64,000 nucleotides of DNA from NCBI GenBank assembly GCA_964411375.1, contig CAYPKR010000002.1, forward strand, positions 129,960-193,959, read 5' to 3'. Made by a program: the position numbers and the translations under genes. Source of the DNA: an uncultured Candidatus Saccharibacteria bacterium (GTDB lineage Bacteria > Patescibacteriota > Minisyncoccia > Phycocordibacterales > UBA12088). The notes below the pieces were generated by a model, which saw nothing but the letters and a program-made list of their open reading frames with translations, was not told the DNA's origin and did not search any database. This document shows, one piece after another, positions 1,224-15,852 of this stretch (position 1 is its first letter; every line of letters starts with the position of its first letter).

Positions 1224-1225
1224 GA

Positions 1226-3199
1226 TTATTTGTTGAACTTCAAGGCTTCAATTTTTGCAATCTCGCTTCCTGGAAGTGTGTATTCGATTTTCTCTTCGAA
1301 TGACCTTGCAATAATACTCGTCACAATTCCAGCAATCGACACGACAACCAGCCACCACATCTGCCACACCATCCCAAAGCCAAAGAGAAAACTGAATCCG
1401 GCGATCATGAGCCCTACACCAGTATTTTTCGGCAAGTGAATGTCATCATATTTTGGAAGAAGTGTCGGGAGTTTCCCTTCACGTTTCATTTCCCAAAAGG
1501 CGTCGCGTTTTCCGCCGTCCGGTATGACTGCAAAATTATACTCTGGAGCGGGCGAGGAAGTGCTCCATTCAAGCGTGCGCGCATTCCATGGATCTCCGGT
1601 CGTATCGGTGCGCAATTTTCGATTCCGAATTCCTTCGAAAATTTGTACCACTTGGAGGAAAATCGCGAACGCGATAATACATGCGCCAATAGCGGCAACG
1701 ATGAGAAGCGAATGCCAACCAGTCGATGCATCGATATGATCAAGACGGCGAGTCATTCCCATGAGTCCGAGGACATAGAGCGGAATAAATGCGAGTACGA
1801 ATCCGATTATCCATGACCAAAATACCCACGTTCCGATCCGCTCCGACAATCGATATCCAAAAATCTTTGGCCACCAATACGCAAGTCCGGCAAAAAATCC
1901 GAACAAGACACCGCCAATTATCATGTTGTGGAAATGCGCGACGAGAAAGAGCGTGTTATGAAATTGAAAATCCACCCCTGGAATTGCCATGAGTACTCCG
2001 GTCATTCCCCCTATCGTGAACGTAACCAAAAATCCCATGAACCAGAGCATCGGCGTCGCAAAGGTGATCCGTCCGCGGAACATAGTGAAAAGCCAGTTGA
2101 ATACTTTGACGCCAGTTGGAATTGAAATCGCCATCGTCATGATGCCGAAAAATGCATTTACGTTTGCGCCTGCGCCCATCGTAAAAAAGTGATGGAGCCA
2201 CACCATGAACGACATGACAACGATCAAGAGTGTTGCGATAACCATCGACGTGTAGCCAAACAGTCGCTTTGCCGAAAAAACGGGGACAATTTCGGAAAAG
2301 ATTCCGAACGCCGGCAAGATAAGAATGTAGACTTCCGGATGCCCCCACGCCCAGATGAGATTGACGTACATCATAAGATTGCCACCTCCGTCTGCCGTAA
2401 AGAAATGCATACCGAGATATCGGTCGAGTGAAAGCGTTGCGAGTGTTGCGGTCAAAATTGGAAATGCGAATAAAACCAAAATCATTGAGCCTAAGCTCGT
2501 CCACACAAAAACCGGCATATTCATGAGTCGCATATTCGGCGTGCGCATTTTCACAATCGTTACGATGAAGTTTACTGCCGCGAGCAAAGTTCCTACTCCG
2601 GCAATCTGGAGTGCCCATATATAGTAGTCAACGCCCACTCCCGGAGAATACGCCATTTCAGAAAGCGGCGGATACGCGAGCCAGCCGGTCGCCGCAAATT
2701 CGCCGATAACCAGGGACGCGTTCACGAGCATCGCTCCTGCAACCGTCATCCAAAAACTAAAAGAGTTTAAAAATGGAAATGCGACATCACGTGCGCCGAT
2801 TTGGAGTGGAACGATACAATTCAACAGTCCAAACATAAACGGCATGGCGACGAAGAAAATCATGATAACGCCGTGCGCGGTAAATATTTGGTCATAATGA
2901 GATGCTTCGAGGAAACCGTTTGAAGTGCCAACTGCGATCGCTTGCTGGCCGCGCATCATTAAGGCATCGACTCCGCCACGAAAGAGCATTACTCCCGCAA
3001 GAACGAGATACATGATGCCGATTTTTTTTGCATCTACGCTCGTGAGCCATTCTTTCCATAGCCATCTAAATCGTTTGGTGTACCAGAGAATCGCAATCAC
3101 CGAAACACCTCCAAGCACAACCATCATCTGCGCGCCGGTTTCAATCGGGCCGTGAATGAAGGAATCGATCGTCAGTTTTCCAAATAAGGTTTCGAGCAT
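1226..3199 (-). CDS. cyoB: Heme-copper quinol oxidase subunit I
   Basis: 657 aa with about 14 TM segments and conserved subunit I signatures ([22 protein letters not shown], histidine ligands). Confidence 0.92.
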
Positions 3200-3201
3200 A
3201 A

Positions 3202-4143
3202 TTAATGTGTGTGCATTTCCATTCCATCCATTGAATGAGAATGTTCGCTACCAACTTCATCCATTTCCGGCATCATAAATTTGTGGATGATTGAATCGAA
3301 CATCCCATCTTGGACACCGCCATAATATTGTACTGGATTATCACTTCGTGGTTTCTTCAGTACTTCGTATTCATAGTCATTCAACGTTGACGAAGAATTC
3401 TGAACGCCTTCGAGCCACTTTGAAAAATCTTCTTCCGAGCGTACTTGTGCCGTAAACACCATGCCTGCAAAATGCGGACCGCTAAAGTTTGCCGACGAGC
3501 CGCGATAATCACCAACCTTGTCTGCGATCAAATGAAGCGGCGTCTGCATTCCGGTCATTGCATATATTTGTCCGCCAAGTTGTGGAATCCAAAATGAATT
3601 CATCGGCGCATCTGCAGTAATTTTGAAATTGACTGGCGTGTCTACTGGAAACTGCACGAAATTCACCGTCGCAATGTGTTCATTTGGATAGATAAAAAGC
3701 CAGCGTGATGGAAGCGCGACCACTTGGATTTCAATCGGTGCAACTTCCGATTCGAGCGGCTTGTATGGATCAAGATCGTGTGTTGAGCCCCACGTAAGCG
3801 CACCAAGAACCAAAATAATTTCAAATGGAATCGCCCACCAAATGAGTTCGTCCATTTTTGCATGCTCCCAATCCGGTGTGTACGTGGCCGATGTATTCCC
3901 TGCCCGATAATGCCATGCAAAATAAAACGCGAGAATAAAAACGGGAATCACGACAATGAGCATAAGAAGGACTGCATTAATCATGAGCGTACGCTCTTTG
4001 GATGCGATGAGTCCATGCGGTTGTAAAATCGGAATCGGGTGTCCAAGCGTCAAAAATGCCAAGAGCCCCGCAAACGCGAGCGATGCAAATATAAAAATGA
4101 AAAGCTGGATCCGATGCCTCATCCTATGTGGAAAGTATAGCAT
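3202..4143 (-). CDS. cyoA: Quinol oxidase subunit II (CyoA-like) with a His/Met-rich C-terminal tail
   Basis: N-terminal TM anchors plus a cupredoxin-like periplasmic domain. The ORF-track start at 4206 would force translation through a perfect hairpin, so the start is trimmed to an internal Met (4143 or 4122). The C-terminus ends in ...[21 protein letters not shown]. Confidence 0.8.
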
Positions 4144-4157
4144 TCGGGTAGGACGGA

Positions 4158-4199
4158 AAATGCCGGATTTCGCCAAGGCGAAATCCGGCATTTTTCCTA
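4158..4199. terminator. Long perfect inverted repeat flanked by an A-tract and a T-tract; likely bidirectional intrinsic terminator between the VOC gene and cyoA
   Basis: GGAAAATGCCGGATTTCGCC-AAGG-GGCGAAATCCGGCATTTTTCC, a stem of about 18 bp. Confidence 0.5.
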
Positions 4200-4212
4200 C
4201 CTTCATTCCCTC

Positions 4213-4707
4213 CTACCCTTTGTACGCCGCGTCCAAATCAGCAACCACAATCTTTTTCATCTTAAGCATCGCCTGCGTTGCGCGACCGCTTGCTGCTGGA
4301 TCTTTTTCGTTAAACCAGCGAGCCATGTCAGGAACAATCTGCCACGAAAAGCCGAATTTATCTTTGAGCCATCCACACTGCTGTGCTGATGGATCGCCGC
4401 CTTCGGTCAAAGCATTCCAGTACTTGTCGATTTCTTCCTGATCTTTACATTCAACCAAGAACGAGATTGCACCAGATGCTTTAAACACCGGTCCACCGTC
4501 GAGCGCCATAAATCGCTGACCAAAAAGTTCAAATACTCCGGTCAAAACCTTGCCGTCAAAACCCGCCATTGGTCCTTCGGTGATTCCCGATGGGTAGCGT
4601 TGGATCGTAACGATCTTTGAATCCGGAAATAGAGACGTGTAAAACTGCATCGCTTCTTCAGCGTTGTTGTTTTCAAACCAGAGAAACGGAGTAACTTTCT
4701 GAATCAT
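4213..4707 (-). CDS. VOC-superfamily protein (PhnB / 3-demethylubiquinone-9 3-methyltransferase-like domain)
   Basis: 164 aa. N-terminal MIQKVTPFLWFENNNAEEAMQFYTSLF... and a ...GFSWQIVP C-terminal signature typical of PhnB-like VOC proteins. Confidence 0.7.
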   Translation of the reverse strand: MIQKVTPFLWFENNNAEEAMQFYTSLFPDSKIVTIQRYPSGITEGPMAGFDGKVLTGVFELFGQRFMALDGGPVFKASGAISFLVECKDQEEIDKYWNALTEGGDPSAQQCGWLKDKFGFSWQIVPDMARWFNEKDPAASGRATQAMLKMKKIVVADLDAAYKG

Positions 4708-5155: not shown

Positions 5156-5658
5156 AGAGGTGCGTTAATTGATACACGGGCAGTATATCACGCGAAGATG
5201 AGGGCTTCTTGAAGGAGAAAAAGGCGACGATTTTAGGCTCCCTTTAAGGGCGACAACGTACAAGCGAAACGCAACATACTTTCCTCTCTTAGTTCGAACC
5301 TAAAAATTACGTTGTGGCACAAGACTCAAAAGAAAAAAGAGCCAAAAGACCCTGTTTTTTTTACTTTGCTCGCCTTACTGAACGATTTTCGAACTTTTGA
5401 CTGGGCTTCCGAGTACAAATATCCGACTGTGGTACTCGACCAGATGAAAGGCCTGTTGGCCAAGTATGAGAACGTATAACCCCTGATTTTCCACCTGGTT
5501 GCCCCTGTGGCGAGCGTTCATGCACGGGACGACGATTGACACACTTCGCACCCTCGACCACCACGTTGCCCCGATTTGAACCCGTGGCGCAAAACTGTGG
5601 GTAACTGCGCCAAAATGAGCTTGGCTTCGCTCGCAAAAGAGCATAGGGTCGGGTTGCG

Positions 5659-5970
5659 ATGGAAGAATCCGTGGACATCGACGCGGCCATCAAAGCCGCC
5701 AAAGATATACGACTTAAATACCGGAAAGGCACGCTCAATCCGCTCTCTTTGCTTCCGGAGCCGAAAGCCAAACTAAAAGCCGCTTTGAAAGATCGTATGA
5801 GACTCCTTGCGGGCGTATACATTTCACTCGCCAGTTTCGTCGAGGATGGCGACGTGCTCTTTGCCGAGCGCAATCCGAAGTCAAAGAAAACAAAACGAAT
5901 ATATCTCAAAGTCCTCGAGGACATGGAAACGGCGCAGAAAGAACTGCGCCGTTTTAAGTTGTTGGAGTAA
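5659..5970 (+). CDS. Hypothetical small protein (103 aa)
   Basis: Protein-like composition (MEESVDIDAAIKAAKDIRLKYRKG...). The first in-frame ATG follows an in-frame stop. It overlaps the 3' end of the convergent KAP gene by 17 nt. Confidence 0.35.
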   Translation: MEESVDIDAAIKAAKDIRLKYRKGTLNPLSLLPEPKAKLKAALKDRMRLLAGVYISLASFVEDGDVLFAERNPKSKKTKRIYLKVLEDMETAQKELRRFKLLE

Positions 5971-8900
5971 CTTCGGCTGTAGTAGCTGCCGCTTGCGCCA
6001 CCTCGGCAACATTATCATCCAAGACTTTATAAACCATCGGTATATATTTCTTATAGGATGCCTCGTCATTTCCTACGAACACAATTTTATCCTTGTCCTC
6101 AAGTTTAAGTGCTTTAAAGGCATCACCATGCTTTTGCCAAAAGGCAGCAAGTTTTACTTTATCTAGTACCTTCGTAAATTCATTGATACTTGGTACATAT
6201 TTCAATCCATCTTCTCGCGCAGAAGCAAACGCATTGGCGAAATTACGGAATAGATAATCGATAAAATATTCAGCATTTTGGGTTTTGGTTGGATCAAAAC
6301 ATACCTCAAATAAATAATTATTCACCGCATCTCTAATTCCCTGATTATCTCCAGTTCCGGCAGGATCATAGTAGCCGCATCCCGCCCCTAGGTTGATTTC
6401 AGCATTTGCCATTTGATAAAGAATGAATGCTCCGACTCTTGTCTTAAGTTCGATGGTTTTCTTCTCAAGATCTTCAACCTTGAAAACACCCTCAGATATT
6501 TTTTGATTTACAAAATCCCCGTATTTTCCAACAAGGTCGCTTGTCTCTAGAGCATCAATTTCTTCAAAGATATTTTTCTTTGGGACAATATAACGAGTAT
6601 TAAATATATCGAAGGCCTTTTGAGATATTTCTCTCATTTCTTCGCATGCAATATCTCTCGTAGAACCTTGTGTTGGAGCGTTCGGATTAGCATGTTGTGC
6701 TACAGCACGGGATAAATCAAAAATATCACCGCCACGGTCTGCGCTACACGATAATCTAAAAAGCATCAGGTCATGAACTCCTAGTACGCCTCTGCTTTCT
6801 TCCGAAAGCCTGCCGAGAACTCCGTTACCGGCATGTCGGCCGTCACCAAATATCCATTCAGCAATTTCTGCGATATGCGGCTCTACGTTGTTGGCATGTT
6901 TTCCTGCCGGATCAATCCAGCCAGCGTCATTGAGTAGCCTCGTGAGGAAATAATCGAGATTATGCCGTAATCCCATGCCCACATTCGGATCGCCCATTTC
7001 AAGCAATGAATATTCGGGTATCGTGTTTAAGAGATGATCAATAATTTCTGTTGCAATATCGTGCGGCAATTCTCGAGCATTATTTACCAATATGCGCCAT
7101 AGTCGCTCTCTAGGATATTCTCCCTCTGTATAGGCAAATTTTGGATCAGCAAAGGCCGAAGCAACAGTTGTTGTTTTATCTAGAATCTTTTCTCTCCATG
7201 ACATATAAAACCTATGTTGACCAATATCTACAGGTTTGGAGAGATTTACGATCAAATCCAAGTATGTCTCAAGATTTCTTCCATTCGTCCAGCCACCATT
7301 GAAACACGCAAGCGAAGTACGCACATCCTCCGGTACACTGTCGATGCGGGCATAGTCATTTCCTCGTGGGAAGCTTTCTCCGAGTGACTTGAGCCTTACA
7401 TCAACGTTAAATACTTGATCTAAAAGGAAACGTTGGTGACTATCTTTGGGAAATTGCTCAAGATATTCGTGGTAATAAGTCGAGTTCTTGTAGGTAGAGT
7501 CGCTGAAAGATGAGCGTCGTTGGCCATTAGTATCTTCCGGATAGCCATCTTCGTGAGGTAGCACGAGAGAAAAGAAACCGCGTCCACCTTTTGTTTCAGT
7601 ATCATATATTTTTCGAAAGACACTCGGATAGTGGATATAAATCAGCAATAGGTTAATAAGGTCTCTCTTGTCGAAATCGCTGTTTTGGAAATTAGTGTTT
7701 TGAAGATCAAACATCAAAACGGTATTTATAAGCCGCTTCAGTTTTCTAACATCTCCAATGAATGGAAGATACCGGTGGTAAATTGATGATTTGTATATAT
7801 CAAGTAAACCGCCCACCGCTTGCCGTACAGGAAGCGGGTCGACCAAGCTAGTCGTAAGCGTTTTTTCAAGATTGTCGGACACGTAGTTTGCCAGATCTGC
7901 CCGTTCCAAGTAAAGACTAATCTTTATATTCACAAACTTTTCTAAAAATTCACCAACCTTTTCTATATCCGGAGTTTCAGCTTCTAAAATGCCGATGTTT
8001 TCAGTGTCATAACAAATAACATAAGAGACGTTCGGAAATGCAAAGCTCTTTCTAATAACAAATAGGATTTCTTTTATTTCCTCAAAACTTATCCGGTCCA
8101 AATCGTCGATAACAATTATCACTTTCTTTGGAAAACGTTTAAGCACAGCACCTAAGTCATCACATGCTTCGTCGGCCGTGTAATCAACTGCAAACGATGG
8201 CAAAGTTAGTCCGAACAGAGAGAATCTGCTTATTTCTTTTAATAGTCGAGCGTAGCGTGAGATCAGCGGCTTAATTTCAGGAATGAAGGAGTCTTTCTGT
8301 ATTGCATGAATAAGTCCATCAATGAATATCTCAAGTAGGTTGGCTGTTCCGAGATAACGCAGAGGACTAAATTTGTATATGACAACCTCTCTTGCATGTT
8401 TCTCCTCCCAATATTCTTTGCAAAAGTTAATGAAAGTTGATTTTCCGATACCCCATGGCGCGTCCACGCCAAATACAAAGCTTTCAGGCGATCCACTATT
8501 AAAGACCTGCTCTGCGAACCTCTCTGCTTTTTCTGAAAAGTTAAGAAGATCGCTATCTTTGTTCTCTAATTCCTTATCTACAACAAACGATGAGTCGTTC
8601 TTTTTCTCATTCCAGATAAGTACTAACTGTCTCAACATTACAAGTATCCCCAAAATAAATGGAGCGGAAATAAGAGTAAGTATTTGAAGAATATTCAAGG
8701 ACGAGACAATTTTTATGTCCCAGTTTGATAAAAAACCTCCCCAAACTACACTTAACAAAATTCCAAAGACAAAAGCGACGACAACATCGATACGTCCACT
8801 TTTAGCAATCTTTTTAATATCGGAAAAGATGCCACGCGCCAGTAGGTATAAGATCAGCAAAGCAACTCCAAATAGAGATAGCGTTATAGCGGCACTCTCG

Positions 8901-9082
8901 TAATTACTAACTTCGATCCACTTATTGAGCTTATCTGAAAGCAGTAGTGATAAATGCCACACCTCTGCACTTAAGATACCTAAGAAGGCTGTTTTGATCA
9001 GCATTACCAAATTTGCCGTTATGATACGGAAATCGGAGAGAGTTTCTCCTAGTTTTTTGATAGATGGTTTAATTTCTCTCAT
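5954..9082 (-). CDS. KAP-family P-loop NTPase, membrane-anchored (defense-island NTPase)
   Basis: 1042 aa. About four hydrophobic helices precede the Walker A motif GVDAPWGIGKSTFINF. A Walker B motif VIIVIDDLDR follows, then a long helical C-terminal region, which is typical of KAP NTPases. The gene is A+T-rich. Confidence 0.8.
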   Translation of the reverse strand: MREIKPSIKKLGETLSDFRIITANLVMLIKTAFLGILSAEVWHLSLLLSDKLNKWIEVSNYESAAITLSLFGVALLILYLLARGIFSDIKKIAKSGRIDVVVAFVFGILLSVVWGGFLSNWDIKIVSSLNILQILTLISAPFILGILVMLRQLVLIWNEKKNDSSFVVDKELENKDSDLLNFSEKAERFAEQVFNSGSPESFVFGVDAPWGIGKSTFINFCKEYWEEKHAREVVIYKFSPLRYLGTANLLEIFIDGLIHAIQKDSFIPEIKPLISRYARLLKEISRFSLFGLTLPSFAVDYTADEACDDLGAVLKRFPKKVIIVIDDLDRISFEEIKEILFVIRKSFAFPNVSYVICYDTENIGILEAETPDIEKVGEFLEKFVNIKISLYLERADLANYVSDNLEKTLTTSLVDPLPVRQAVGGLLDIYKSSIYHRYLPFIGDVRKLKRLINTVLMFDLQNTNFQNSDFDKRDLINLLLIYIHYPSVFRKIYDTETKGGRGFFSLVLPHEDGYPEDTNGQRRSSFSDSTYKNSTYYHEYLEQFPKDSHQRFLLDQVFNVDVRLKSLGESFPRGNDYARIDSVPEDVRTSLACFNGGWTNGRNLETYLDLIVNLSKPVDIGQHRFYMSWREKILDKTTTVASAFADPKFAYTEGEYPRERLWRILVNNARELPHDIATEIIDHLLNTIPEYSLLEMGDPNVGMGLRHNLDYFLTRLLNDAGWIDPAGKHANNVEPHIAEIAEWIFGDGRHAGNGVLGRLSEESRGVLGVHDLMLFRLSCSADRGGDIFDLSRAVAQHANPNAPTQGSTRDIACEEMREISQKAFDIFNTRYIVPKKNIFEEIDALETSDLVGKYGDFVNQKISEGVFKVEDLEKKTIELKTRVGAFILYQMANAEINLGAGCGYYDPAGTGDNQGIRDAVNNYLFEVCFDPTKTQNAEYFIDYLFRNFANAFASAREDGLKYVPSINEFTKVLDKVKLAAFWQKHGDAFKALKLEDKDKIVFVGNDEASYKKYIPMVYKVLDDNVAEVAQAAATTAEVTPTT

Positions 9083-9147
9083 GCTTAATACATCAATTAT
9101 CCACTTTTTAAGTTGAGATGTAAAGAATTGTAAAGTATAATTCTATT

Positions 9148-9324
9148 ATGACAGGCAAAGAGTTCTACACCGCTCAAGAATTAGCCGATAAATTAGGGGT
9201 AAATATTATGACTATTTACCGCTATATCAAAGCTAAGAAATTCAAGGCCTATAAATTAGGTAAGGAATTCAGAATAGACAAAGCCGATTTCAAATCTTTC
9301 ATGGAAAAGGCAAAGACCATTTAA
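9148..9324 (+). CDS. Small excisionase/MerR-type HTH DNA-binding protein (59 aa); putative controller of the R-M operon
   Basis: Translation from ATG at 9148 gives MTGKEFYTAQELADKLGVNIMTIYRYIKAKKFKAYKLGKEFRIDKADFKSFMEKAKTI. The ORF is below the 60-aa cutoff of the supplied track. Its stop lies 3 nt before the methyltransferase start. Confidence 0.65.
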   Translation: MTGKEFYTAQELADKLGVNIMTIYRYIKAKKFKAYKLGKEFRIDKADFKSFMEKAKTI

Positions 9325-9327
9325 TTT

Positions 9328-11313
9328 ATGCAAACACTTCCCATTAATACTAAAACAATAGACCTGGAAGAAGCAGGGACTCTGCTCGGGGTTTCGGGCG
9401 CAACCATACGAAATTGGATCAGACATAGCTATATCACCCCTGAAAACACCACTAATAAGAAAATGGTGTTTAAACATGCCGAGATACAAGAGCTGAAAAA
9501 CAAAATCGAATCTGGAGAAATAAGTCGTTTGAGCAAACGTGCCAACAAAAGGAATTCATCAAATACTTTTATTCCTGATGAGTATGCCGACAACGACGAG
9601 GTCTATGTACTTGTAAAAGAGATTATCGATATTTATCGATCAAATGATCTCAACAAAGATAGCGTCATATTTTCCTTATTGCTTAACGTACTTAAGAACG
9701 TTGGATTAGTTGAATACCCGACGACTTTTGATATTTCGAAGATCACCTTTAAAAGCAAAACAGTAGAACAAGAGCTTAGTTGGTGGCTAAAAAACGCGCA
9801 GCATAATTTGGCCTCAAATAACTATAGCGATCTCTTGAATATTGATCTGCCAAAGGTTAATGACATCGTTGGACTCATTTATCAGTCCTTAAGTAATGAG
9901 GGGGATAAAGCAGAAGGCGGTTCTTATTACACTCCCAAGGTGGTAGTGGATGAGGCTGTAGAAAGATATATTAAACAGGACTTACTTGTTCTCGATCCAT
10001 GCTGTGGTACAGGTCAGTTTCTTCTATCGGCCTCTAAGAAAATTAAAAATCCAAGCAATATTTGGGGTTTCGATATAGATGAAAAAGCCGTAAGAATAGC
10101 GAGATTGAATCTCTTGGCTCAATACCCAAGGGAAGACTTTGTACCAAATATTTTTCATAGAAATACACTTCTTTCTTCGAGAGGTCTTTTTGGGAACGAT
10201 ACTCCTGAATTTGATGTAGTAATAACCAATCCGCCTTGGGGAGTACATTTTTCTTCCTCTGAAATTAGAGAGCTGGGGGCACTCTATCCATATATAAATT
10301 CCAACGAAGCTTTCTCATATTTTATCGCTAGAGGCTTAGAATTCTTAAAAGAAGGCGGCGTTTTGTCGTACATTCTTCCAGAATCAATTTTGAATGTTAA
10401 ATCTCACAGAGACATTCGAGAGATACTGCTTACAAAAACAAGAATAAAGAAAGTTAAGCATCTTGATAGAGTCTTTAAAAATGTTTTTACGCCGGTGATT
10501 AGGCTTGATGTGGCTAAATTAACTCCTGAAGATACAGATGAGTTTGAGGTTGAAAAAGCAGAATTGAAACACACAATTAAGCAATCCCGCTTGAAGAATA
10601 ACAATGATTATTTGTTTGATGTATTTAATGGAGATCAAGAACTAGGTATTTTTGAGAAAGTCTATAGTGTCGATCATACAACTCTTAAAAATAACGCCGA
10701 ATGGGCATTGGGCGTAGTAACCGGAGACAACAAGAAACATCTTAAAGAGACTAAATCGAGTGAATTTGAACCCATTTTAACCGGCAAAGAAATAAAGAGG
10801 TTTATAGTGGCTCAACCAAAGAATTTTATTAAATTTGAACCTGGTAAATTCCAGCAGGTAGCTCCGGAATATAAATATAGGGTGCCAGAGAAACTCATTT
10901 ATAAGTTCATCTCAAAGGACTTGGTATTTTCCTATGACAATCAGCAAACCCTTACATTAAATAGCGCAAATATTCTTATCCCGGAGGTAGAAAATTACCC
11001 AGTAAAAACTATTCTCGCGCTATTTAATTCATCGCTTTATCAATTCATATACCAGAAAAAGTTTGGTGCTATAAAAATCTTGAGAAGTGATCTTGAACAA
11101 TTACCGCTCCCCATCCTTCCAGCGAATCAGCATGAAAGATTGAACTTACTTGTTGAGAGATTGCTTGATACTGATCTTGGATTAGAGGAAAGAAAATCGG
11201 AATATCTCAAACTTGATAATGCTATATTATCCCTGTTTTCCTTAAGCAAGGTTGAACAGGAATATATAAGATCAAACGTAAAAATGTCGGACAAATTATT
11301 AAACTTTCAATAA
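9328..11313 (+). CDS. Type II N6-adenine DNA methyltransferase, gamma class (Eco57I/TaqI-like) with an N-terminal HTH
   Basis: 661 aa. Motif I is VLDPCCGTGQFL, motif IV is NPPWG, and a C-terminal TaqI-like specificity region is present. The N-terminus LEEAGTLLGVSGATIRNWIRH is an HTH. Confidence 0.9.
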   Translation: MQTLPINTKTIDLEEAGTLLGVSGATIRNWIRHSYITPENTTNKKMVFKHAEIQELKNKIESGEISRLSKRANKRNSSNTFIPDEYADNDEVYVLVKEIIDIYRSNDLNKDSVIFSLLLNVLKNVGLVEYPTTFDISKITFKSKTVEQELSWWLKNAQHNLASNNYSDLLNIDLPKVNDIVGLIYQSLSNEGDKAEGGSYYTPKVVVDEAVERYIKQDLLVLDPCCGTGQFLLSASKKIKNPSNIWGFDIDEKAVRIARLNLLAQYPREDFVPNIFHRNTLLSSRGLFGNDTPEFDVVITNPPWGVHFSSSEIRELGALYPYINSNEAFSYFIARGLEFLKEGGVLSYILPESILNVKSHRDIREILLTKTRIKKVKHLDRVFKNVFTPVIRLDVAKLTPEDTDEFEVEKAELKHTIKQSRLKNNNDYLFDVFNGDQELGIFEKVYSVDHTTLKNNAEWALGVVTGDNKKHLKETKSSEFEPILTGKEIKRFIVAQPKNFIKFEPGKFQQVAPEYKYRVPEKLIYKFISKDLVFSYDNQQTLTLNSANILIPEVENYPVKTILALFNSSLYQFIYQKKFGAIKILRSDLEQLPLPILPANQHERLNLLVERLLDTDLGLEERKSEYLKLDNAILSLFSLSKVEQEYIRSNVKMSDKLLNFQ

Positions 11314-11316
11314 AAC

Positions 11317-12057
11317 ATGCAACTTCTAAAGGAAAAACTTAATCAGTTAATCGATGAGCTCTCCGCAGATAAAAAGGAGATGATACGGGGACGGCTTGCC
11401 GATCTTATCTCCGTATACCCGTTCAATGAGTACGAATATATAATCTCCTCCCTTATGGGTTTTGGAAAGATTACGCTCGATGATTACCTTGAAATCAGGG
11501 ATGAATATATCGCACGAAACATGTATCTCTATATCTTCGAAATAGGCTCGCCTCGCGGTTTCGGAGAGCAATGGGCTCAAGGTCATCTTAAAGAGTTGGT
11601 TCCGGAGCTAGTAAAGCCCACAAAGAAAGTAGAGGAAAACTACAAGGGAGATTATGATTTTTTATTACCCAATCAGGATGATCTGATAAGAATTGAAGTA
11701 AAAGCCTCGAGAGCAGTTGATGGAGCTAGTGCTGAACCTTTGTATGTAAAAGCTCTTGCTTTCGAAAACAAGCAACCTTTCTGGATGAACTTTCAACAGA
11801 TTAAGCCAGCTCACTGTGATGTGTTTGTGTGGGTTGCTGTGTGGAGAGACGTGATCAAATACTGGGTGCTCTCATCGGATGAAGTAAAAGCAAATAAATA
11901 CTATTCTAAAGGCCAACATAGAGGAAATGTTGGAGAAGGCCAGTTGCATATTAAGGATGACAATATTAAGGATTTTCAGATTTACGAAGTCAAACCAAAC
12001 GAACTTAAAGACGCTATCGTTAGAGCGTACGAGCGACAGAAAGGTATCACTAAGTAA
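11317..12057 (+). CDS. Putative type II restriction endonuclease (PD-(D/E)xK-like)
   Basis: 246 aa, starting 4 nt after the methyltransferase stop. It contains a D...DDLIRIEVKAS pattern compatible with a PD-ExK active site. No other identifiable family signature was seen. Confidence 0.5.
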   Translation: MQLLKEKLNQLIDELSADKKEMIRGRLADLISVYPFNEYEYIISSLMGFGKITLDDYLEIRDEYIARNMYLYIFEIGSPRGFGEQWAQGHLKELVPELVKPTKKVEENYKGDYDFLLPNQDDLIRIEVKASRAVDGASAEPLYVKALAFENKQPFWMNFQQIKPAHCDVFVWVAVWRDVIKYWVLSSDEVKANKYYSKGQHRGNVGEGQLHIKDDNIKDFQIYEVKPNELKDAIVRAYERQKGITK

Positions 12058-12110
12058 CGATGCCTTTTGAGCATTTCGGATATGAGACAAAAGTGTCTTA
12101 TTTCTGAAAA

Positions 12111-12140
12111 GCTGACTGGAAGTTAGCTTAAACCTTACTT
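12111..12140. other. Hairpin (8-bp stem CTGGAAGT/ACTTCCAG) at the junction between the A+T-rich R-M operon and the GC-richer recombinase module
   Basis: ctggaagttagcttaaaccttacttccag. There is no clear T-tract. Confidence 0.3.
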
Positions 12141-12150
12141 CCAGTACAAA

Positions 12151-12813
12151 ATGATTATGAAGATGAAAAAGGCCTTACTGGCCAGGACATATACACTCAA
12201 TACGAACCGGTCCGTGGGTAAAGCAACCACGTATCTGTTTTCTATATCAGCCATTACCGGCGAATTGCGATCCGCGCTTAAGGATTTTGCGGATGTTGAG
12301 CGGCCGGCCGAGATCGTAAAGACCAGCGATCCGGCTATTCAAGCTCTCGTCGGCGCACTCAATCGAAACAGCGAAAGCATCGAATCCATGACACGTGCCT
12401 ATCTTACTGCTTTGAATAAAATTGCAGATTTGGAAACGAGCGTTGCGAAACTCACGGCCGAAGGCGCAGCGTACGGCCTTGCCGGCAAGCGAACTAAACC
12501 AGCAGACAAAAAGACAATCTATCTTTCGAACGATGGCGACTTATACCGCGAGCCGAAAGCGAAGCATTGTTATGCGATGGGCAAGGAAAAGCAACGCCAG
12601 AAGATCGTGCGGGTCCTACTTGAAAGGAAGACCTATGTGCCCACGGATGCGCTCGTGGAGCTCTCCGGCAGTAAGAATCGCAAATCACTGCACAACGCGA
12701 AACTCATGATCAATCGCAAAGTGCGGTACGCGCTGGGTATTGAAAACTTTATCGTCGGCCGCGCGGTAAGCGGCTACAAACTCAATCCGGAATACAAAAT
12801 AAAGCAGGTGTAG
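12151..12813 (+). CDS. DNA-binding protein with a C-terminal OmpR/PhoB-type winged helix
   Basis: 220 aa. The C-terminus KIVRVLLERKTYVPTDALVE...NRKVRYALGIENFIVGRAVSGYKL matches the Trans_reg_C wing pattern (..RLR.KL.....I.TVRG.GY.L). The GC content is higher than in the adjacent R-M genes. Confidence 0.5.
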   Translation: MIMKMKKALLARTYTLNTNRSVGKATTYLFSISAITGELRSALKDFADVERPAEIVKTSDPAIQALVGALNRNSESIESMTRAYLTALNKIADLETSVAKLTAEGAAYGLAGKRTKPADKKTIYLSNDGDLYREPKAKHCYAMGKEKQRQKIVRVLLERKTYVPTDALVELSGSKNRKSLHNAKLMINRKVRYALGIENFIVGRAVSGYKLNPEYKIKQV

Positions 12814-13210
12814 CTCTGGTGTAGTTAATAAGTTGGTACTGCAAGCAGCAAAACGGCTGCTTTTTTCGTATCTGGCTACACGTCCGCAGTATGGTAAACG
12901 CCCATTCATGCTTGCAACAATAAAAGCGTGTGAGAGGAAGTTAATGACAATGAAAATGCCACATGCAAAACAATTATTACAAAACCGCCGATCTGGCATT
13001 GGTCGCGGTGCTTTTATTATTCATTCCTGATTCTCTGGAGGTCGTGGATCGGGGAAATCCGCACAAGGTGCTCTTTTGTTTCGGCAAGAGCCCTGACTTG
13101 GATTCTCTGGTGAAGCGATACTGGAATCGCGAGCTTGTGGTCGAACCGCAGGCGTTCTTCAACCAGCTCAAACAGGTCAAAGTACGGATTTATGCCGAGG
13201 ACTAAGACCT

Positions 13211-13420
13211 GTGAAAATCAAACCGGAAACGCTGGAGAAACTCCGCGCGATCCTGAAGCACGACTTCAGTCTTGAGGTAAGCGACCAAGACCTGCACGAC
13301 ATCGCCTTCAATCTGGTGCGGTACTACGACGCGCTATCGCGGTTTTACGTCGAGGACATCACGAGCGGCCGCACGCTCATCGAACCCTATGACACCCAAC
13401 CCAAGCGAACAAAAGCATAA
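13211..13420 (+). CDS. Hypothetical small protein (69 aa)
   Basis: ORF in the higher-GC recombinase module. It overlaps the next ORF by 32 nt in a different frame. Confidence 0.3.
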   Translation: MKIKPETLEKLRAILKHDFSLEVSDQDLHDIAFNLVRYYDALSRFYVEDITSGRTLIEPYDTQPKRTKA

Positions 13421-13961
13421 GGTCCGAGACTACCGCGAAGCGCCGTTTGCCTACCAAGACAAACCAGCCTTGCGCTTTATGCGCCAGGAATGGATCGACA
13501 AAAGAATAAGCGACGATGCATATCGCAACCTGCGCAACGTGTACTGTGCGCTTACCGAGATCGCATCGAATAAAGCGAGCCAAACCATCGAAGCGTCGAA
13601 TAAGACGATGCTTCTCTACTGTGGGCTCAAAGACTGGCGGACGATTAAGAAATGCTTGGACACGCTCGAAGTGTGGGCGTTTATCGCGATCACCAAAGTT
13701 CGCGGCGCGGATGCCAAGTTCAAGCCGCGAAGCATCACACTTCTTTCCGTCCTACATCTGGCGCAGGATGGTGGCCGATCTGCACGTGAAGCCATACGGC
13801 AAAGCACGCACACAGGCTGCGAGGCAGAAGATAAAGAAGCTAAGGGATTAAAAGAAATTAAAGAAAATTATAAAGAAACTAGCGGTGACTTCGAGAAAAT
13901 AAAGGAAATTCGGCAAATGAAGGCTCAATTACTGAAGAAAATGAGTATGCGAGGCAAATAA
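13389..13961 (+). CDS. Hypothetical protein (190 aa), cargo of the element
   Basis: Protein-like composition with a Lys/Glu-rich C-terminus. No recognisable motif. Confidence 0.4.
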   Translation: MTPNPSEQKHKVRDYREAPFAYQDKPALRFMRQEWIDKRISDDAYRNLRNVYCALTEIASNKASQTIEASNKTMLLYCGLKDWRTIKKCLDTLEVWAFIAITKVRGADAKFKPRSITLLSVLHLAQDGGRSAREAIRQSTHTGCEAEDKEAKGLKEIKENYKETSGDFEKIKEIRQMKAQLLKKMSMRGK

Positions 13962-14175: not shown

Positions 14176-15792
14176 ATGATTATGACTATGAATCAAGAAA
14201 ATCAACCCTTACGCGCCGTCGGCTACGCTCGCGTGTCGTCCAAGGATCAGGAAGACACCGGCTATTCGCTGCCGGCGCAAGAAAAGCTTCTGCGGGATTA
14301 TGCCGACCGGAATGGCTACGATCTGGTCAAAGTATTTGCCATTCAAGAATCGGCCGCGGGCAAGGTCCAGCGCAAGATATTTCACGAAATGATGGAGTAT
14401 GTGTCGAAAGCGAAAATCACTACGATCTTCGTCGAGACGACTGACCGCCTTACGCGCAACTTCGCCGATGTGCCGGTTATCGACGAGTGGATTCTTGCCG
14501 ACGAGAAGCACATGATCCATCTCGTCAAAGAAAGCTGCACGCTCCATAAAGACTCGAAATCTCACGAATGGTTTATGTGGCGCGTGAAAGTTGCTACAGC
14601 CGAGTACTACATCCGGCTCCTTTCCGAGAACGTGAAGAAAGGCCAGAAAGAAAAGCTGGCGCAAGGCTGGCTACCGACACGGCCGCCGCTTGGCTATAAA
14701 ACCATCGGCGAGAAAGGACATAAAATCCATGTGCTCGATGAGGACAAAGCGCCGATCGTCAAAAGAATGTTCGAACTGTATGCTACCAACATCAGCTCGA
14801 CCAAAAAGCTTGCCGATGAAATGTACCGGCTCGGTATGCGCTCGCGTGGAGGCAACAAGGTAAGCCACTCACGCGTGCACCAGCTCCTTGGCGATCCGTT
14901 CTATTACGGTATGAACCGCTGGAACGGCAAAGTCGCGCAAGGCAATCATGAGCCTCTGATCACCAAAGAATTATTTATGCGATGCCAAGACATCATGCAC
15001 AGCAACGGCACGCCAAAATACAACAAACACAATTCGCTTTTTAAGAACGTGTTTAAGTGCGAGGAATGCAAAGGCCGCGTAACATGGGAGATACAGAAAG
15101 GCCACTGGTACGGACACTGCAACCATTACAAGAATTGCACGCAGCGCGAATATGTCCGGCAAGAAACGGTCGATGAGCAAGTCATGGAAAATATCGAGCA
15201 GTTAAGCTCAAAGCATGACGAAGCCATCGAGCATATGCTCACCTGGGTCCAAGAAGCTCTCAAGGAAAGCCACAGCGAGGAAATAGAATTTAGGGAAAAG
15301 GCCACCGGCGAGCTTGAACGACGTTATCAAATGGCAACCCAGCGGCTCGACAAGATATATGACGATAAGATCGACGGCAAAATCAGCGAGGAGTTCTATC
15401 AGAAAAAGTATGCTCAATACAAGCTTGAGCAGGAAGAAGTGATGGATAGCCTCAATAAGCATAAGAATGCCAATCTCAAGTACTACGACATGGGCTCGAC
15501 GTTCTTGCAGATGGCCAAGGAGGCACGAAGGATTTACCTCAACCGAAGCACTATCGAGATGGTCGATGACAAGAAGCTCTTAATGTCTCTATTATTTTCG
15601 AACTCGACCATAAATAGCAAGAAAGTTGATATTTCATACCATAAAGCCTTCAAAATCATCTCCGATCGCGTGATGCAGATGTTGGGAGAAAAAATACCCA
15701 AAAATAAAACTTTCGAACCGCCAAAAAAGCCCGTCAATAAAGGAAAAACACCAGCTTTCGCTGATGTTAATCCTATCTGGCTCCGGCGGTAG
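14176..15792 (+). CDS. Large serine recombinase (resolvase catalytic domain + recombinase domain + zinc ribbon)
   Basis: N-terminal catalytic domain LRAVGYARVSSKDQ (catalytic Ser). A Cys-rich zinc beta-ribbon CEECKGRVTW...GHCNHYKNC is present. The protein is 538 aa. The last 5 codons are encoded by the 3' end of the tRNA-Asn gene. Confidence 0.9.
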   Translation: MIMTMNQENQPLRAVGYARVSSKDQEDTGYSLPAQEKLLRDYADRNGYDLVKVFAIQESAAGKVQRKIFHEMMEYVSKAKITTIFVETTDRLTRNFADVPVIDEWILADEKHMIHLVKESCTLHKDSKSHEWFMWRVKVATAEYYIRLLSENVKKGQKEKLAQGWLPTRPPLGYKTIGEKGHKIHVLDEDKAPIVKRMFELYATNISSTKKLADEMYRLGMRSRGGNKVSHSRVHQLLGDPFYYGMNRWNGKVAQGNHEPLITKELFMRCQDIMHSNGTPKYNKHNSLFKNVFKCEECKGRVTWEIQKGHWYGHCNHYKNCTQREYVRQETVDEQVMENIEQLSSKHDEAIEHMLTWVQEALKESHSEEIEFREKATGELERRYQMATQRLDKIYDDKIDGKISEEFYQKKYAQYKLEQEEVMDSLNKHKNANLKYYDMGSTFLQMAKEARRIYLNRSTIEMVDDKKLLMSLLFSNSTINSKKVDISYHKAFKIISDRVMQMLGEKIPKNKTFEPPKKPVNKGKTPAFADVNPIWLRR

Positions 15793-15852
15793 GATTCGAA
15801 CCTACAACCAACGCGTTAACAGCGCGCTGCTCTACCATTGAGCTACACCGGA
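15778..15852 (-). tRNA. tRNA-Asn (anticodon GTT)
   Basis: Minus-strand sequence: TCCGGTGTAGCTCAATGGTAGAGCAGCGCGCTGTTAACGCGTTGGTTGTAGGTTCGAATCCTACCGCCGGAGCCA. It has a cloverleaf with a 7-bp acceptor stem, GTT anticodon, GGTTCGAATCC T-arm and an encoded CCA. A TAGAAT -10 element lies about 10 nt upstream. Confidence 0.85.

What the first reader, a model, noticed from the sequence alone, without database searches (positions are those of the whole stretch)
5954..12057. A+T-rich defense island: membrane KAP NTPase divergently paired with an HTH-controlled three-gene restriction-modification operon
Two classes of immunity gene sit back to back. One is a roughly 1040-aa KAP-family P-loop NTPase. 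The other is a coupled HTH/methyltransferase/endonuclease operon with 3-4 nt intergenic gaps. The region is visibly more A+T-rich than the flanking cyo and housekeeping genes. It abuts a serine-recombinase/tRNA module, consistent with horizontally acquired immunity cargo. A KAP NTPase physically linked to an R-M module has no established functional coupling and would be worth testing as a composite system.
Basis: partly seen in the sequence, partly recalled or inferred. Interest (0 to 1): 0.7.

Follow-up and report, generated by a model that had tools for sequence, protein, structure and literature searches.

The report
Mobile defence island: KAP NTPase plus restriction-modification
A roughly 10-kb mobile island in a Patescibacteria (CPR) genome carries an ordinary type II restriction-modification operon back to back with an uncharacterised membrane KAP NTPase; the two turn out to be separable cargo modules that share a promoter region, not one obligate composite system.

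Summary
All four ORFs are at the stated coordinates, with 3-nt gaps in the HTH/MTase/REase operon and a 65-nt divergent gap to the KAP gene. GC is 0.386 against 0.466±0.017 elsewhere.

The genes are cargo of a ~9.8-kb large-serine-recombinase island at tRNA-Asn in a Patescibacteria genome. A sister element is 100% identical in two different genomic flanks, so this kind of element moves as a unit.

The R-M is a standard type II system: an NPPW N6-adenine MTase with a TaqI_C domain, plus a PD-(D/E)XK REase.

The KAP protein has four N-terminal TM helices, an intact P-loop and a 586-aa C-terminal domain found only in this family (277 clusters among 1.84 billion representatives).

The "composite system" reading is not supported as obligate. 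The same HTH-MTase-REase module occurs without KAP in 3 of 3 sampled contexts. Most KAP homologues have no R-M nearby.

The adjacency does recur. In the nearest KAP clade (≥74% identity), 9 of 10 loci have an R-M operon directly upstream, of at least six different kinds.

A conserved 65-bp region holds the two best promoter-like sites, sharing TGTAAAG repeats. Co-regulation is plausible but untested.

Verdict: new members of known kinds, of moderate interest.

The parts
5312..5479 (+). 55-aa ORF just outside or at the edge of the island. Homologues lie downstream of KAP islands in L017 and L144.
   Evidence: tblastn gives 75% to L017 and 53% to L144. Nucleotide identity to L017 is 82% over window 5357-5518.
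5659..5970 (+). p103, a 103-aa ORF convergent with KAP and overlapping its 3' end by 17 nt. It is the probable chromosomal flank or target region of the island.
   Evidence: Homologues (about 68%) sit just outside the right end of the sister element in L142, and downstream of KAP in L009. No Pfam, NCBIfam or PHROG hit.
5967..5997 (.). Interval that contains the left (KAP-side) end of the island. It includes a degenerate copy of the tRNA-Asn 3' end: CTTCGGCTGTAG at 5971-5982, against CTCCGGCGGTAG at 15781-15792.
   Evidence: Homology to the p103 flank ends at about 5966. Nucleotide homology to other KAP genes starts at 5997-6011. The 12-mer match has 2 mismatches. It is chance-level across the whole window (2.4 expected) but about 1e-3 for this 30-nt interval.
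5954..9082 (-). KAP-family P-loop NTPase, 1042 aa.
   Evidence: Pfam KAP_NTPase 3.4e-38. The PADLOC PifA hit is partial (3.8e-29) and the QatA hit is weak. Full-length homologues at 45-85% identity occur in CPR MAGs.
8636..9025 (-). KAP residues 20-149: four predicted transmembrane helices, N-terminal to the NTPase domain.
   Evidence: Hydropathy peaks at 20-38, 64-82, 100-118 and 131-149. The AF2 model shows long helices here.
7715..8530 (-). KAP residues 185-456: the NTPase domain, with Walker A (A208-PWGIGKS215) and Walker B (V321-IIVIDD327).
5957..7714 (-). KAP residues 457-1042: a family-specific, mostly helical C-terminal domain of unknown function. It is the presumed sensor or effector.
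   Evidence: No Pfam hit, no PDB sequence hit and no fold hit. Many residues are invariant, including CFNG 593-596, DRGG 782-785 and C902-G903/Y905-D906. An exhaustive search finds 277 clusters, almost all at positions of about 445-1010 in proteins of about 1000 aa.
9083..9147 (.). 65-bp divergent control region (GC 0.23). Its elements are: ATTATCCAC (9096-9104); the HTH/R-M promoter TTGAGA(9113)-17-TATAAT(9141), 6 nt before the ATG and so probably leaderless; the KAP promoter TTTACA(9124)-17-GATAAT(9096) on the minus strand; and direct repeats TGTAAAG at 9119-9125 and 9129-9135.
   Evidence: These are the two best promoter-like sites in 5800-12300, scoring 11/12 and 10/12. The ATTATCCAC...TGTAAAG-N3-(T/A)GTAAAG-TAT(A/C)AT block is conserved upstream of HTH genes in L001, L147, L146 and L151.
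9148..9324 (+). 58-aa HTH_17 (excisionase/MerR-type) DNA-binding protein. It is the first gene of the R-M operon and the presumed controller.
   Evidence: HTH_17 1.8e-13; TIGR01764 3.8e-13; PADLOC mad1 2.5e-11. Homologues at 63-72% identity lead ApaLI, type III and EcoRI-MTase/HNH R-M operons; the leader of the L146 DpnII operon belongs to the same subfamily by its sequence.
9328..11313 (+). Gamma-class N6-adenine DNA methyltransferase with a TaqI_C target-recognition domain and a weak N-terminal second HTH.
   Evidence: N6_Mtase, Eco57I and TaqI_C hits. PADLOC MTase_II 2.7e-125. The DPCCGTG and NPPW motifs are visible in the translation. The nearest PDB sequences are type I M subunits and BsaXI.
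11317..12057 (+). Type II restriction endonuclease with a PD-(D/E)XK fold. The candidate catalytic residues are D114 and E127-V-K129.
12151..13961 (+). Island backbone: p220 (12151-12813), DUF5659 (12963-13205), a 69-aa ORF (13211-13420) and a 190-aa ORF (13389-13961). Functions are unknown.
   Evidence: Homologues at 70-92% identity, in the same order, occur in L017 with different cargo. The DUF5659 and p220-like genes also occur in L142 and L147.
14176..15792 (+). Large serine recombinase (integrase), 538 aa. Its last codons overlap the 3' end of tRNA-Asn.
   Evidence: Resolvase, Recombinase and Zn_ribbon_recom hits. PHROG integrase 1.1e-76. 88.6% identical to the L017 recombinase.
15778..15852 (-). 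tRNA-Asn (GTT), the attachment-site end of the island.
   Evidence: ARAGORN and Rfam at 73.6 bits. L001 has the same layout with tRNA-Gln.

Best explanation
Window 5.97-15.79 kb is a small integrative island in a Patescibacteria (Paceibacterota-like) chromosome. It was inserted by a large serine recombinase at the 3' end of tRNA-Asn. Its A+T-rich cargo consists of two self-sufficient defence modules.

(1) A type II R-M operon. It is probably transcribed as a leaderless mRNA from a promoter 6 nt upstream of a small HTH_17 gene. The HTH protein is inferred to bind the TGTAAAG direct repeats in the promoter spacer and to control its own operon, like a C-protein. The MTase methylates adenine (NPPW motif) at a site read by its TaqI_C domain. 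The PD-(D/E)XK REase cuts unmethylated incoming DNA.

(2) A single-gene membrane KAP NTPase. It has four N-terminal TM helices, a STAND/ORC-like P-loop switch and a family-specific 586-aa helical domain. By analogy with PifA and the recently validated KAP-fusion defences, that domain is inferred to sense an infection cue and to convert NTP binding or hydrolysis into a membrane-level block of phage or mobile-element propagation.

The two modules sit together because this family of CPR elements has a cargo slot next to the KAP gene, and R-M cassettes are exchanged in that slot faster than KAP diverges. They are not parts of one obligate machine.

In the divergent arrangement seen here, the TGTAAAG repeats also form the -35 of the KAP promoter. 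The HTH protein may therefore co-regulate both modules.

Shown: gene identities, motifs, mobile context, modularity, recurrence of the adjacency, and conservation of the control region.

Inferred: operator binding, leaderless transcription, the KAP defence function and its mechanism.
For: Identities.

Host: the named DnaG relatives are Patescibacteria or Paceibacterota.

Mobility:
- The recombinase stop codon overlaps the tRNA-Asn 3' end. L001 has the same layout with tRNA-Gln.
- L017 shares the backbone (recombinase 89%, DUF5659 92%, p190 78%, p220 70%) and KAP (77%), but carries Fic plus a type III R-M in the slot.
- The L142/L143 sister element (12.29 kb, including its R-M and KAP) is 100% identical in two different flanks.
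- KAP has dozens of clusters at 70% identity or more across CPR lineages. The host DnaG has only three at 71% or more.

Modularity:
- The same HTH+MTase+REase module occurs without KAP in L147/148, L149 and L151/152.
- In L147 an unrelated pair of 698-aa and 358-aa genes occupies the KAP position.
- KAP occurs without R-M in L004 and at prophage ends next to integrase and terminase.

Recurrence:
- An MTase lies within 3.5 kb upstream of KAP in 9/10 loci of the ≥74% clade, 6/24 at 44-74%, and 3/49 below 44%. Downstream counts are 0/8, 3/26 and 0/44.
- Pfam counts agree.
- The R-M kinds are gamma-MTase/PD-(D/E)XK, ApaLI, DpnII, MvaI/BcnI, EcoRI-MTase with GmrSD/HNH, type III, type I-like, and large N6_Mtase fusions.
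- The R-M kind differs between sister tips of the KAP tree.

Control region.

KAP as defence:
- Partial PifA-type KAP domain match.
- Walker motifs are invariant.
- KAP NTPases fused to unknown C-terminal regions were experimentally shown to be single-gene antiphage defences found near serine recombinases (PMC13552941).
- PifA causes membrane depolarisation and abortive infection (PMC13001434).
Against: - No experiment exists for this KAP family. Its C-terminal domain matches nothing known, so the mechanism rests on analogy only.
- KAP is often the last gene directly after the R-M genes, with gaps of 3-50 nt, or it shares the 65-bp control region. That is tighter than usual defence-island neighbourliness and could mean more than shared cargo space.
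- The crown-clade loci are related elements, so the 9/10 figure is not nine independent events.
- My MTase survey used ORF calls and HMMs seeded from the close clade. It was cross-checked by Pfam only in aggregate.
- The left end of the island is located to a 30-nt interval by homology. No empty site was found.
Confidence: 0.7

Rival explanations
1. Functional two-layer system. The R-M and KAP are selected to be together and co-expressed under the HTH-controlled promoter region. KAP acts as a backup or synergist, for example firing when restriction is evaded or inhibited. Comparable cases are PrrC with EcoprrI, and the synergy of Tmn with other systems.
For: - An R-M lies directly upstream of KAP in 9/10 crown-clade loci, and in scattered deeper branches (L011, L024, L064, L068, L071, L124) with unrelated R-M types.
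- KAP is often co-directional with the R-M genes, with gaps of 3-50 nt.
- In divergent loci the TGTAAAG repeats sit in the R-M promoter spacer and also form the -35 of the KAP promoter.
- A related membrane NTPase, Tmn, synergises with other defence systems.
Against: - The same R-M module and the same control region occur with other partners or none.
- KAP stands alone in L004, at prophage ends, and in nearly all homologues below 44% identity.
- R-M enzymes this diverse give no common protein surface for a specific interaction.
- The upstream/downstream asymmetry is also explained by KAP sitting at the edge of the island, with chromosome on its other side.
- No R-M-specific synergy is known for any KAP protein.
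Confidence: 0.2
2. The 58-aa HTH_17 protein is the island's excisionase (recombination directionality factor), not an R-M controller.
For: The best named matches are the excisionase-family domain TIGR01764 (3.8e-13) and PHROG 'excisionase and transcriptional regulator'. It also lies on an integrative element.
Against: - It is always the first, tightly coupled gene of an R-M operon (gaps of 2-10 nt), whatever the R-M type.
- Its neighbouring recombinases differ (28-89% identical, or absent in L146).
- It is missing from L017, which has the closest recombinase.
- Its own promoter carries conserved repeats, as expected for autoregulation.
- The MTase carries a second, similar HTH at its N-terminus.
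Confidence: 0.1
3. The KAP NTPase is not an antiviral gene. It serves the mobile element itself, for example through exclusion of competing elements, membrane targeting or maintenance.
For: - It is retained at element termini while the neighbouring cargo turns over.
- It sits between the tRNA and the integrase at prophage ends.
- The source cited in PMC13552941 notes that phage restriction is probably not the primary function of PifA.
Against: - Distant full-length homologues sit alone in Paenibacillus, Pseudomonas and Burkholderia genomes and plasmids with no conserved element genes.
- KAP-fusion proteins tested so far do protect against phage.
- Exclusion of rival elements would still count as a defence function.
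Confidence: 0.1

Closest known systems
[quoted passage not shown]
   Same: A single large protein with TM helices, a KAP NTPase domain with required Walker motifs, and a C-terminal region with no known fold. These genes are found next to serine recombinases on mobile DNA.
   Different: - EF_KAP has two TM helices, one of them inside the NTPase domain, and a 322-aa C-terminal region.
- This protein has four TM helices, all N-terminal, and its own 586-aa C-terminal domain.
- Here the recombinase is a large (538-aa) integrase, not a small one.
- There is no experimental evidence for this family.
PifA of the F plasmid (KAP family; T7 exclusion by abortive infection)
   Same: Homologous KAP NTPase core (PADLOC PifA 3.8e-29). 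Carried on a mobile element. Action at the membrane is inferred.
   Different: Only part of the PifA profile aligns: the best stretch covers positions 165-275 of 720. PifA lacks TM helices. The C-terminal domains are unrelated.
Tmn (YobI-family transmembrane NTPase)
   Same: A membrane-anchored P-loop NTPase that works as a single-gene defence. It is known to act together with neighbouring defence systems.
   Different: Tmn belongs to a different NTPase family and has two TM helices inserted within the P-loop domain. This protein has no hydrophobic segment inside its NTPase domain and gave no Tmn hit in PADLOC.
C-protein-controlled type II R-M systems (e.g. PvuII, AhdI; from general knowledge)
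   Same: A small HTH gene leads the operon. Conserved repeats lie within its own promoter. The transcript is probably leaderless.
   Different: - The regulator is an HTH_17 (MerR/excisionase-type) protein, not an Xre-type C protein.
- The gene order is HTH-MTase-REase.
- The operator is a direct repeat, not the palindromic C-box.
- The same leader serves several unrelated R-M enzyme sets.
Defence hotspots of integrative elements (P4-like satellites and P2 prophages; from general knowledge)
   Same: Conserved flanking genes with rapidly exchanged defence cargo between them, on integrase-bearing elements at tRNA genes.
   Different: - The host is a CPR bacterium.
- The integrase is a large serine recombinase.
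- The cargo in the slot is almost always an R-M system.
- One of the 'flank' genes (KAP) is itself a putative defence gene.

Membership tests
KAP family P-loop NTPase (PF07693) | Profile match above the curated threshold | tested here: met
   132 bits against a cut-off of 20, covering residues 185-456 and profile positions 4-287 of 293.
KAP family P-loop NTPase (PF07693) | Intact Walker A and Walker B motifs | tested here: met
   APWGIGKS at 208-215 and VIIVIDD at 321-327. G211, G213, K214, S215, D326 and D327 are invariant in 20 homologues.
KAP family P-loop NTPase (PF07693) | Transmembrane helices associated with the NTPase domain | tested here: met
   Four hydrophobic segments at residues 20-149, N-terminal to the domain. 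None lies inside it.
PifA (PADLOC PDLC02361) | Full-length similarity to PifA | tested here: not met
   Only two partial stretches align. The best covers residues 302-411 against PifA profile positions 165-275 of 720. The C-terminal 586 aa have no match.
Qat system (QatA) | QatA equivalog score and QatBCD neighbours | tested here: not met
   NCBIfam QatA scores 25 bits against a cut-off of 600. No QatB, QatC or QatD-like genes are in the island.
Tmn (YobI family) | Two TM helices inserted within the P-loop domain, plus a Tmn profile hit | tested here: not met
   No hydrophobic segment lies between residues 185 and 456. No Tmn model appears among the PADLOC hits.
Type II restriction-modification system | DNA MTase with AdoMet-binding and catalytic motifs | tested here: met
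   N6_Mtase, Eco57I and TaqI_C hits. MTase_II at 417.6 bits. The DPCCGTG and NPPW motifs are in the translation.
Type II restriction-modification system | A separate endonuclease with a nuclease fold, next to the MTase | tested here: met
   REase_II at 250 bits over the full length. PD-(D/E)XK fold matches. D114, E127 and K129 are invariant. The gap to the MTase is 3 nt.
Type II restriction-modification system | Matching recognition sequence and cleavage/methylation activity | not testable with these tools
   Needs methylome sequencing and cleavage assays.
C-protein-controlled R-M | A small HTH regulator that binds an operator in its own promoter | tested here: inconclusive
   The HTH leader gene and the TGTAAAG repeats in the promoter spacer are conserved. 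However, the fold class is HTH_17 rather than Xre, and binding was not tested.
MADS (methylation-associated defence system) | mad1 and mad2 at equivalog level, plus the further mad genes | tested here: not met
   MAD1 scores 27 bits against 80, and MAD2 scores 59 against 720. No other mad-like genes are in the island.
Large-serine-recombinase integrative element | Resolvase, Recombinase and zinc-ribbon domains, at an element end next to the attachment site | tested here: met
   All three domains are present. The stop codon overlaps the tRNA-Asn 3' end. A sister element is identical in two different flanks.
Large-serine-recombinase integrative element | Defined attL/attR sites and an empty site | tested here: inconclusive
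   The left end is narrowed to 5967-5997 and contains a degenerate copy of the tRNA 3' end. No long repeat was found and no empty site was recovered.
   The R-M module occurs without KAP in 3 of 3 sampled contexts. KAP occurs without an upstream DNA MTase in 1/10, 18/24 and 46/49 loci across the three identity classes.

The most novel reading that the evidence does not exclude
The recurrent juxtaposition reflects a real functional unit in CPR bacteria. An HTH_17 'leader' and its bidirectional promoter would co-regulate an exchangeable R-M cassette and the membrane KAP NTPase. KAP would act as a second layer that is triggered, or made more effective, when restriction is under way or has been evaded. 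This would be a new kind of R-M-linked backup immunity in organisms that largely lack CRISPR.
Probability: 0.2. Interest if true: 0.65.

Novelty: new member of a known kind. Interest (0 to 1): 0.4.

Why it matters
CPR/Patescibacteria are a large and almost uncultured part of bacterial diversity, and their immunity is poorly known. This locus provides three things:

- A concrete, portable example of how their defence genes travel: small serine-recombinase islands with an R-M slot.
- A discrete, uncharacterised KAP NTPase family. It comprises 277 clusters at 50% identity, with a unique 586-aa domain, and can be tested heterologously.
- A compact 65-bp bidirectional control region with a candidate operator, shared by several unrelated R-M systems.

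If the R-M/KAP link proved functional, it would add a new case of layered immunity. If it does not, the locus remains a clean example of modular cargo exchange.

Tried and rejected
- **Source contig look-up.** Exact-sequence look-ups of the window's KAP protein, to recover its contig, found nothing. The host was inferred from DnaG relatives instead.
- **att repeats.** Repeat search and a search with the 25-nt tRNA 3' end allowing up to 3 mismatches found no second copy. Only a degenerate 12-mer turned up.
- **GC-rich spacer 5470-5660.** No Rfam family matched at the gathering threshold or at E≤1. ARAGORN found no tRNA remnant.
- **MADS, Qat, PifA and Tmn membership.** All rejected on score, coverage or architecture.
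- **Viral contigs.** Two motif scans for the control region found nothing. Only one full-length KAP homologue is in IMG/VR and none is in the phage records.
- **L147 698-aa protein as a diverged KAP.** Rejected (hhalign probability 0.4).
- **PycTM-like partner gene.** Absent from the window.
- **Metagenome scan for KAP loci.** The close relatives came from protein-based look-ups.

Full report
**1. What is at the coordinates**

The ORF scan shows a 1042-aa ORF on the minus strand (5954-9082). After a 65-nt gap there are three plus-strand ORFs separated by 3 nt each: 9148-9324 (58 aa), 9328-11313 (661 aa) and 11317-12057 (246 aa).

- Pfam assigns KAP_NTPase (3.4e-38) to the large protein and HTH_17 (1.8e-13) to the small one.
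- The 661-aa protein hits N6_Mtase, Eco57I and TaqI_C. Its translation contains DPCCGTG and NPPW, so it is a gamma-class N6-adenine DNA methyltransferase.
- The 246-aa protein has no Pfam hit, but it matches a PADLOC type II REase model over its full length (5.2e-75).
- GC of 5954-12057 is 0.386. Equal-sized windows outside the island give 0.466±0.017, with a minimum of 0.442.
- The cyoB and cyoA flanks are real.

The one correction is that four small ORFs (12151-13961) separate the R-M from the recombinase. That backbone, together with the recombinase, has host-like GC (0.483).

**2. Host and mobile context**

The window's DnaG has named relatives only in Patescibacteria, Paceibacterota and Kaiserbacteria.

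The 538-aa protein at 14176-15792 is a large serine recombinase with Resolvase, Recombinase and Zn-ribbon domains and a PHROG integrase hit of 1.1e-76. Its last codons overlap the 3' end of tRNA-Asn (15778-15852). L001 has the same layout with tRNA-Gln.

Three comparisons show the region is a mobile island.

- L017 (Patescibacteria UBA6033) has the same backbone: recombinase 89%, DUF5659 92%, 69-aa ORF 86%, p190 78%, p220 70%. It also has a 77% KAP gene, but carries Fic plus a type III Mod/Res between them.
- L142 and L143 contain a 12.29-kb sister element made up of a recombinase, backbone genes, an HTH/DpnII-type R-M, KAP, a PycTM-like gene and a 372-aa gene. It is 100% identical in the two loci, but the flanks differ on both sides.
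- KAP has dozens of 90%-identity clusters at 70% identity or more, spread over Paceibacterota, Yonathbacteria, Adlerbacteria, WS5 and Peregrinibacteria. DnaG has only three at 71% or more.

The gene just outside the right end of the L142 element is a homologue of window p103 (5659-5970). Nucleotide homology to that flank ends at about 5966, and homology to other KAP genes begins at 5997-6011. The left end of the island therefore lies in 5967-5997.

That interval contains CTTCGGCTGTAG, a 2-mismatch copy of the tRNA 3' end CTCCGGCGGTAG. The match is not significant window-wide (2.4 expected), but is about 1e-3 for this interval. No empty site was found, so the ends are inferred. The island spans about 5.97-15.79 kb.

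**3. The KAP protein**

- Hydropathy gives four TM segments (20-38, 64-82, 100-118, 131-149), all before the NTPase domain.
- Walker A (APWGIGKS, 208-215) and Walker B (VIIVIDD, 321-327) are present. G211, G213, K214, S215, D326, D327 and R330 are invariant in 20 homologues spanning 46-85% identity.
- The last 586 residues are conserved along their whole length, with many invariant Cys, His, Asp and Gly positions. They have no Pfam hit, no PDB sequence hit and no fold hit.
- Fold searches hit only the NTPase domain: ORC/Cdc6, the STAND/NLR proteins ZAR1, CED-4 and Apaf-1, MalT, and RdrA of RADAR.
- An exhaustive HMMER search with the C-terminal domain alone finds 277 clusters among 1.84 billion representatives. 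Almost all sit at positions of about 445-1010 in proteins of about 1000 aa. The domain therefore appears confined to this architecture.
- PADLOC's best match is PifA, but it is only partial. QatA is far below threshold and no Tmn model matched.
- Full-length homologues at 30-45% identity occur in Paenibacillus, Pseudomonas and Burkholderiales, including B. glumae plasmids where they are annotated 'KAP family NTPase' next to integrases.

**4. Is KAP+R-M a composite system?**

I collected 126 non-identical KAP loci. I called ORFs and searched them with locally built HMMs for MTase classes, Res helicases, serine recombinases and other families.

| KAP identity to window | DNA MTase within 3.5 kb upstream | Within 3.5 kb downstream |
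|---|---|---|
| ≥74% | 9/10 | 0/8 |
| 44-74% | 6/24 (two are phage-type MTases next to terminase genes) | 3/26 |
| <44% | 3/49 | 0/44 |

- Fisher's test for loci at ≥44% against those below 44% gives p = 6.5e-5. In the paired comparison, 13 loci have an MTase upstream only and 3 have one downstream only (p = 0.02).
- Aggregate Pfam scans of upstream neighbours agree. In the close set (94 proteins) the counts are N6_N4_Mtase 9, ResIII 7, N6_Mtase 3, D12 3, EcoRI_methylase 1, DpnII 2, GmrSD_N 2 and RE_ApaLI 1. In the distant set (127 proteins) there are only 2 DNA_methylase and 2 Mrr_cat hits.
- The R-M kinds next to KAP are unrelated to each other:
  - gamma-MTase with a PD-(D/E)XK REase (window);
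  - ApaLI (L001);
  - DpnII with two MTases (L142, L146);
  - MvaI/BcnI (L144);
  - EcoRI-MTase with GmrSD/HNH (L013);
  - type III (L017, L006, L007, L024, L068);
  - type I-like (L124/L026);
  - large N6_Mtase fusions (L064, L071).
- They differ between sister tips of the KAP tree, so cargo turns over faster than KAP diverges.
- Between L017 and L006, KAP and Res are 98% identical but Mod is only 65%.
- A serine recombinase lies within 8 kb in 20/27 loci of the ≥44% clade, against 2/32 distant loci.
- In L008, L010, L021 and L022, KAP sits next to the integrase at the end of a prophage-like element with terminase genes. In L008, L021 and L022 a tRNA gene lies just upstream of KAP, and no R-M is beside it.

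The reverse test is decisive against an obligate composite. The window's REase family is large (4561 homologues). In all three sampled contexts of close relatives, the HTH-MTase-REase module, or MTase-REase alone, is present without KAP.

- L147/L148 (REase 93%) have the same backbone type. An unrelated pair of 698-aa and 358-aa genes is divergently placed where KAP would be.
- L149 has the REase at 87% identity.
- L151/L152 have it at 86%, directly followed by a serine recombinase.

Among the 126 KAP loci, only the window has this particular R-M. The pairing is a recent assembly of separable modules.

**5. The shared control region**

The 65-bp gap (GC 0.23) contains the two best sigma-70-like sites in the whole 5800-12300 region.

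- On the plus strand, TTGAGA-17-TATAAT scores 11/12. It ends 6 nt before the HTH start codon, which suggests a leaderless mRNA.
- On the minus strand, TTTACA-17-GATAAT scores 10/12 and sits about 13 nt before the KAP start codon.
- Two direct repeats, TGTAAAG-N3-TGTAAAG (9119-9135), fill the spacer of the first promoter. Read on the other strand, one of them is the -35 of the second.

The block ATTATCCAC...TTG..TGTAAAG-N3-(T/A)GTAAAG-TAT(A/C)AT is conserved upstream of HTH genes in four other loci:

- L001, which has an ApaLI R-M with KAP divergent;
- L147, which has the same R-M with the 698-aa gene divergent;
- L146, which has a DpnII R-M with UvrD divergent;
- L151.

The HTH proteins of this subfamily are 63-72% identical in L001, L007 and L013, even though their R-M enzymes are unrelated; the L146 and L151 leaders have very similar sequences.

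I infer that the HTH_17 protein is a portable R-M operon leader and controller that binds the repeats. In the divergent arrangement it could repress KAP, or whatever sits there, at the same time. This is inference from sequence only.

The excisionase alternative rests on TIGR01764 (3.8e-13) and the PHROG 'excisionase and transcriptional regulator' hit. It is less likely for two reasons. The gene always travels with the R-M genes. It is also absent from L017, which has the closest recombinase.

**6. Mechanism proposed**

The R-M works as an ordinary type II system under autogenous HTH control.

KAP is a membrane-anchored, STAND-like NTPase switch. I infer that its private C-terminal domain senses infection and that its output is at the membrane. 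This rests on analogy:

- PifA causes membrane depolarisation and nucleotide leakage.
- KAP-fusion proteins have been shown to be Walker-motif-dependent single-gene defences near serine recombinases (PMC13552941).
- Tmn, a different family, exports Mg2+ and synergises with other systems.

The recurrent adjacency is best explained by the architecture of this element family, in which KAP sits at the island edge and an R-M slot lies next to it. Genuine synergy is not excluded, and I put it at about 0.2.

**7. Comparison and verdict**

Each component is a new member of a known kind:

- a type II R-M with an unusual HTH_17 leader;
- a KAP-fusion NTPase of an uncharacterised family;
- a large-serine-recombinase island at a tRNA gene.

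The composite-system idea fails its defining test. The link between CPR KAP genes and an R-M slot, and the shared 65-bp control region, remain concrete and testable leads. Interest is moderate (0.4).

Noticed in passing
L147:1228-4402 (also L148): A 698-aa and a 358-aa gene with no Pfam or PADLOC hit sit divergently from the same HTH-MTase-REase module and the same control region, exactly where KAP sits in the window. They are candidates for an unknown defence pair. The 698-aa protein is unrelated to KAP.
   Followed up: partly
L142:10605-11078; L144:11150-11623; L004:13211-13684; L009:~2545-2946: A 157-aa membrane protein with weak PycTM similarity (1.1e-4) follows KAP by 3-16 nt in four of the closest elements. 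It is absent from the window. It may be an optional KAP partner or effector.
   Followed up: partly
L017:5332-9163 vs L006:4644-8463: These are two elements with KAP (98.5%) and type III Res (97.6%) nearly identical, but Mod only 65% identical. This looks like a recent swap of the Mod specificity region.
   Followed up: partly
window 5312-5970: The 55-aa ORF and p103, separated by a GC-rich (about 0.53) non-coding stretch at 5470-5660, both recur next to KAP islands in other genomes (L017 and L144; L142 and L009). The stretch has no Rfam or tRNA hit. It could be a conserved integration hotspot or the remnant of another element.
   Followed up: partly
L147:10716-13520: A serine recombinase is called as one 934-aa ORF fused to tRNA_Me_trans (MnmA-like) domains. 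This suggests integration into, or read-through across, a host gene. It resembles the window's recombinase reading into the tRNA-Asn 3' end.
   Followed up: no
window 621-4707: A cytochrome bo-type quinol oxidase operon (CyoB and CyoA confirmed by Pfam) and a PF06983 (3-dmu-9_3-mt) protein occur in a Patescibacteria genome. That is an uncommon respiratory complement for CPR bacteria.
   Followed up: no
window 36483-39662 (-): A 1059-aa protein has a pectate-lyase-like beta-helix and a Peptidase_S74 intramolecular-chaperone domain. That is the architecture of phage tailspikes and tail fibres. It could be a prophage remnant or a surface protein.
   Followed up: no
window 9136-9150: The TATAAT box ends 6 nt before the HTH start codon and there is no Shine-Dalgarno sequence. 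The R-M operon is therefore probably translated from a leaderless mRNA, as in several C-protein-controlled systems.
   Followed up: partly
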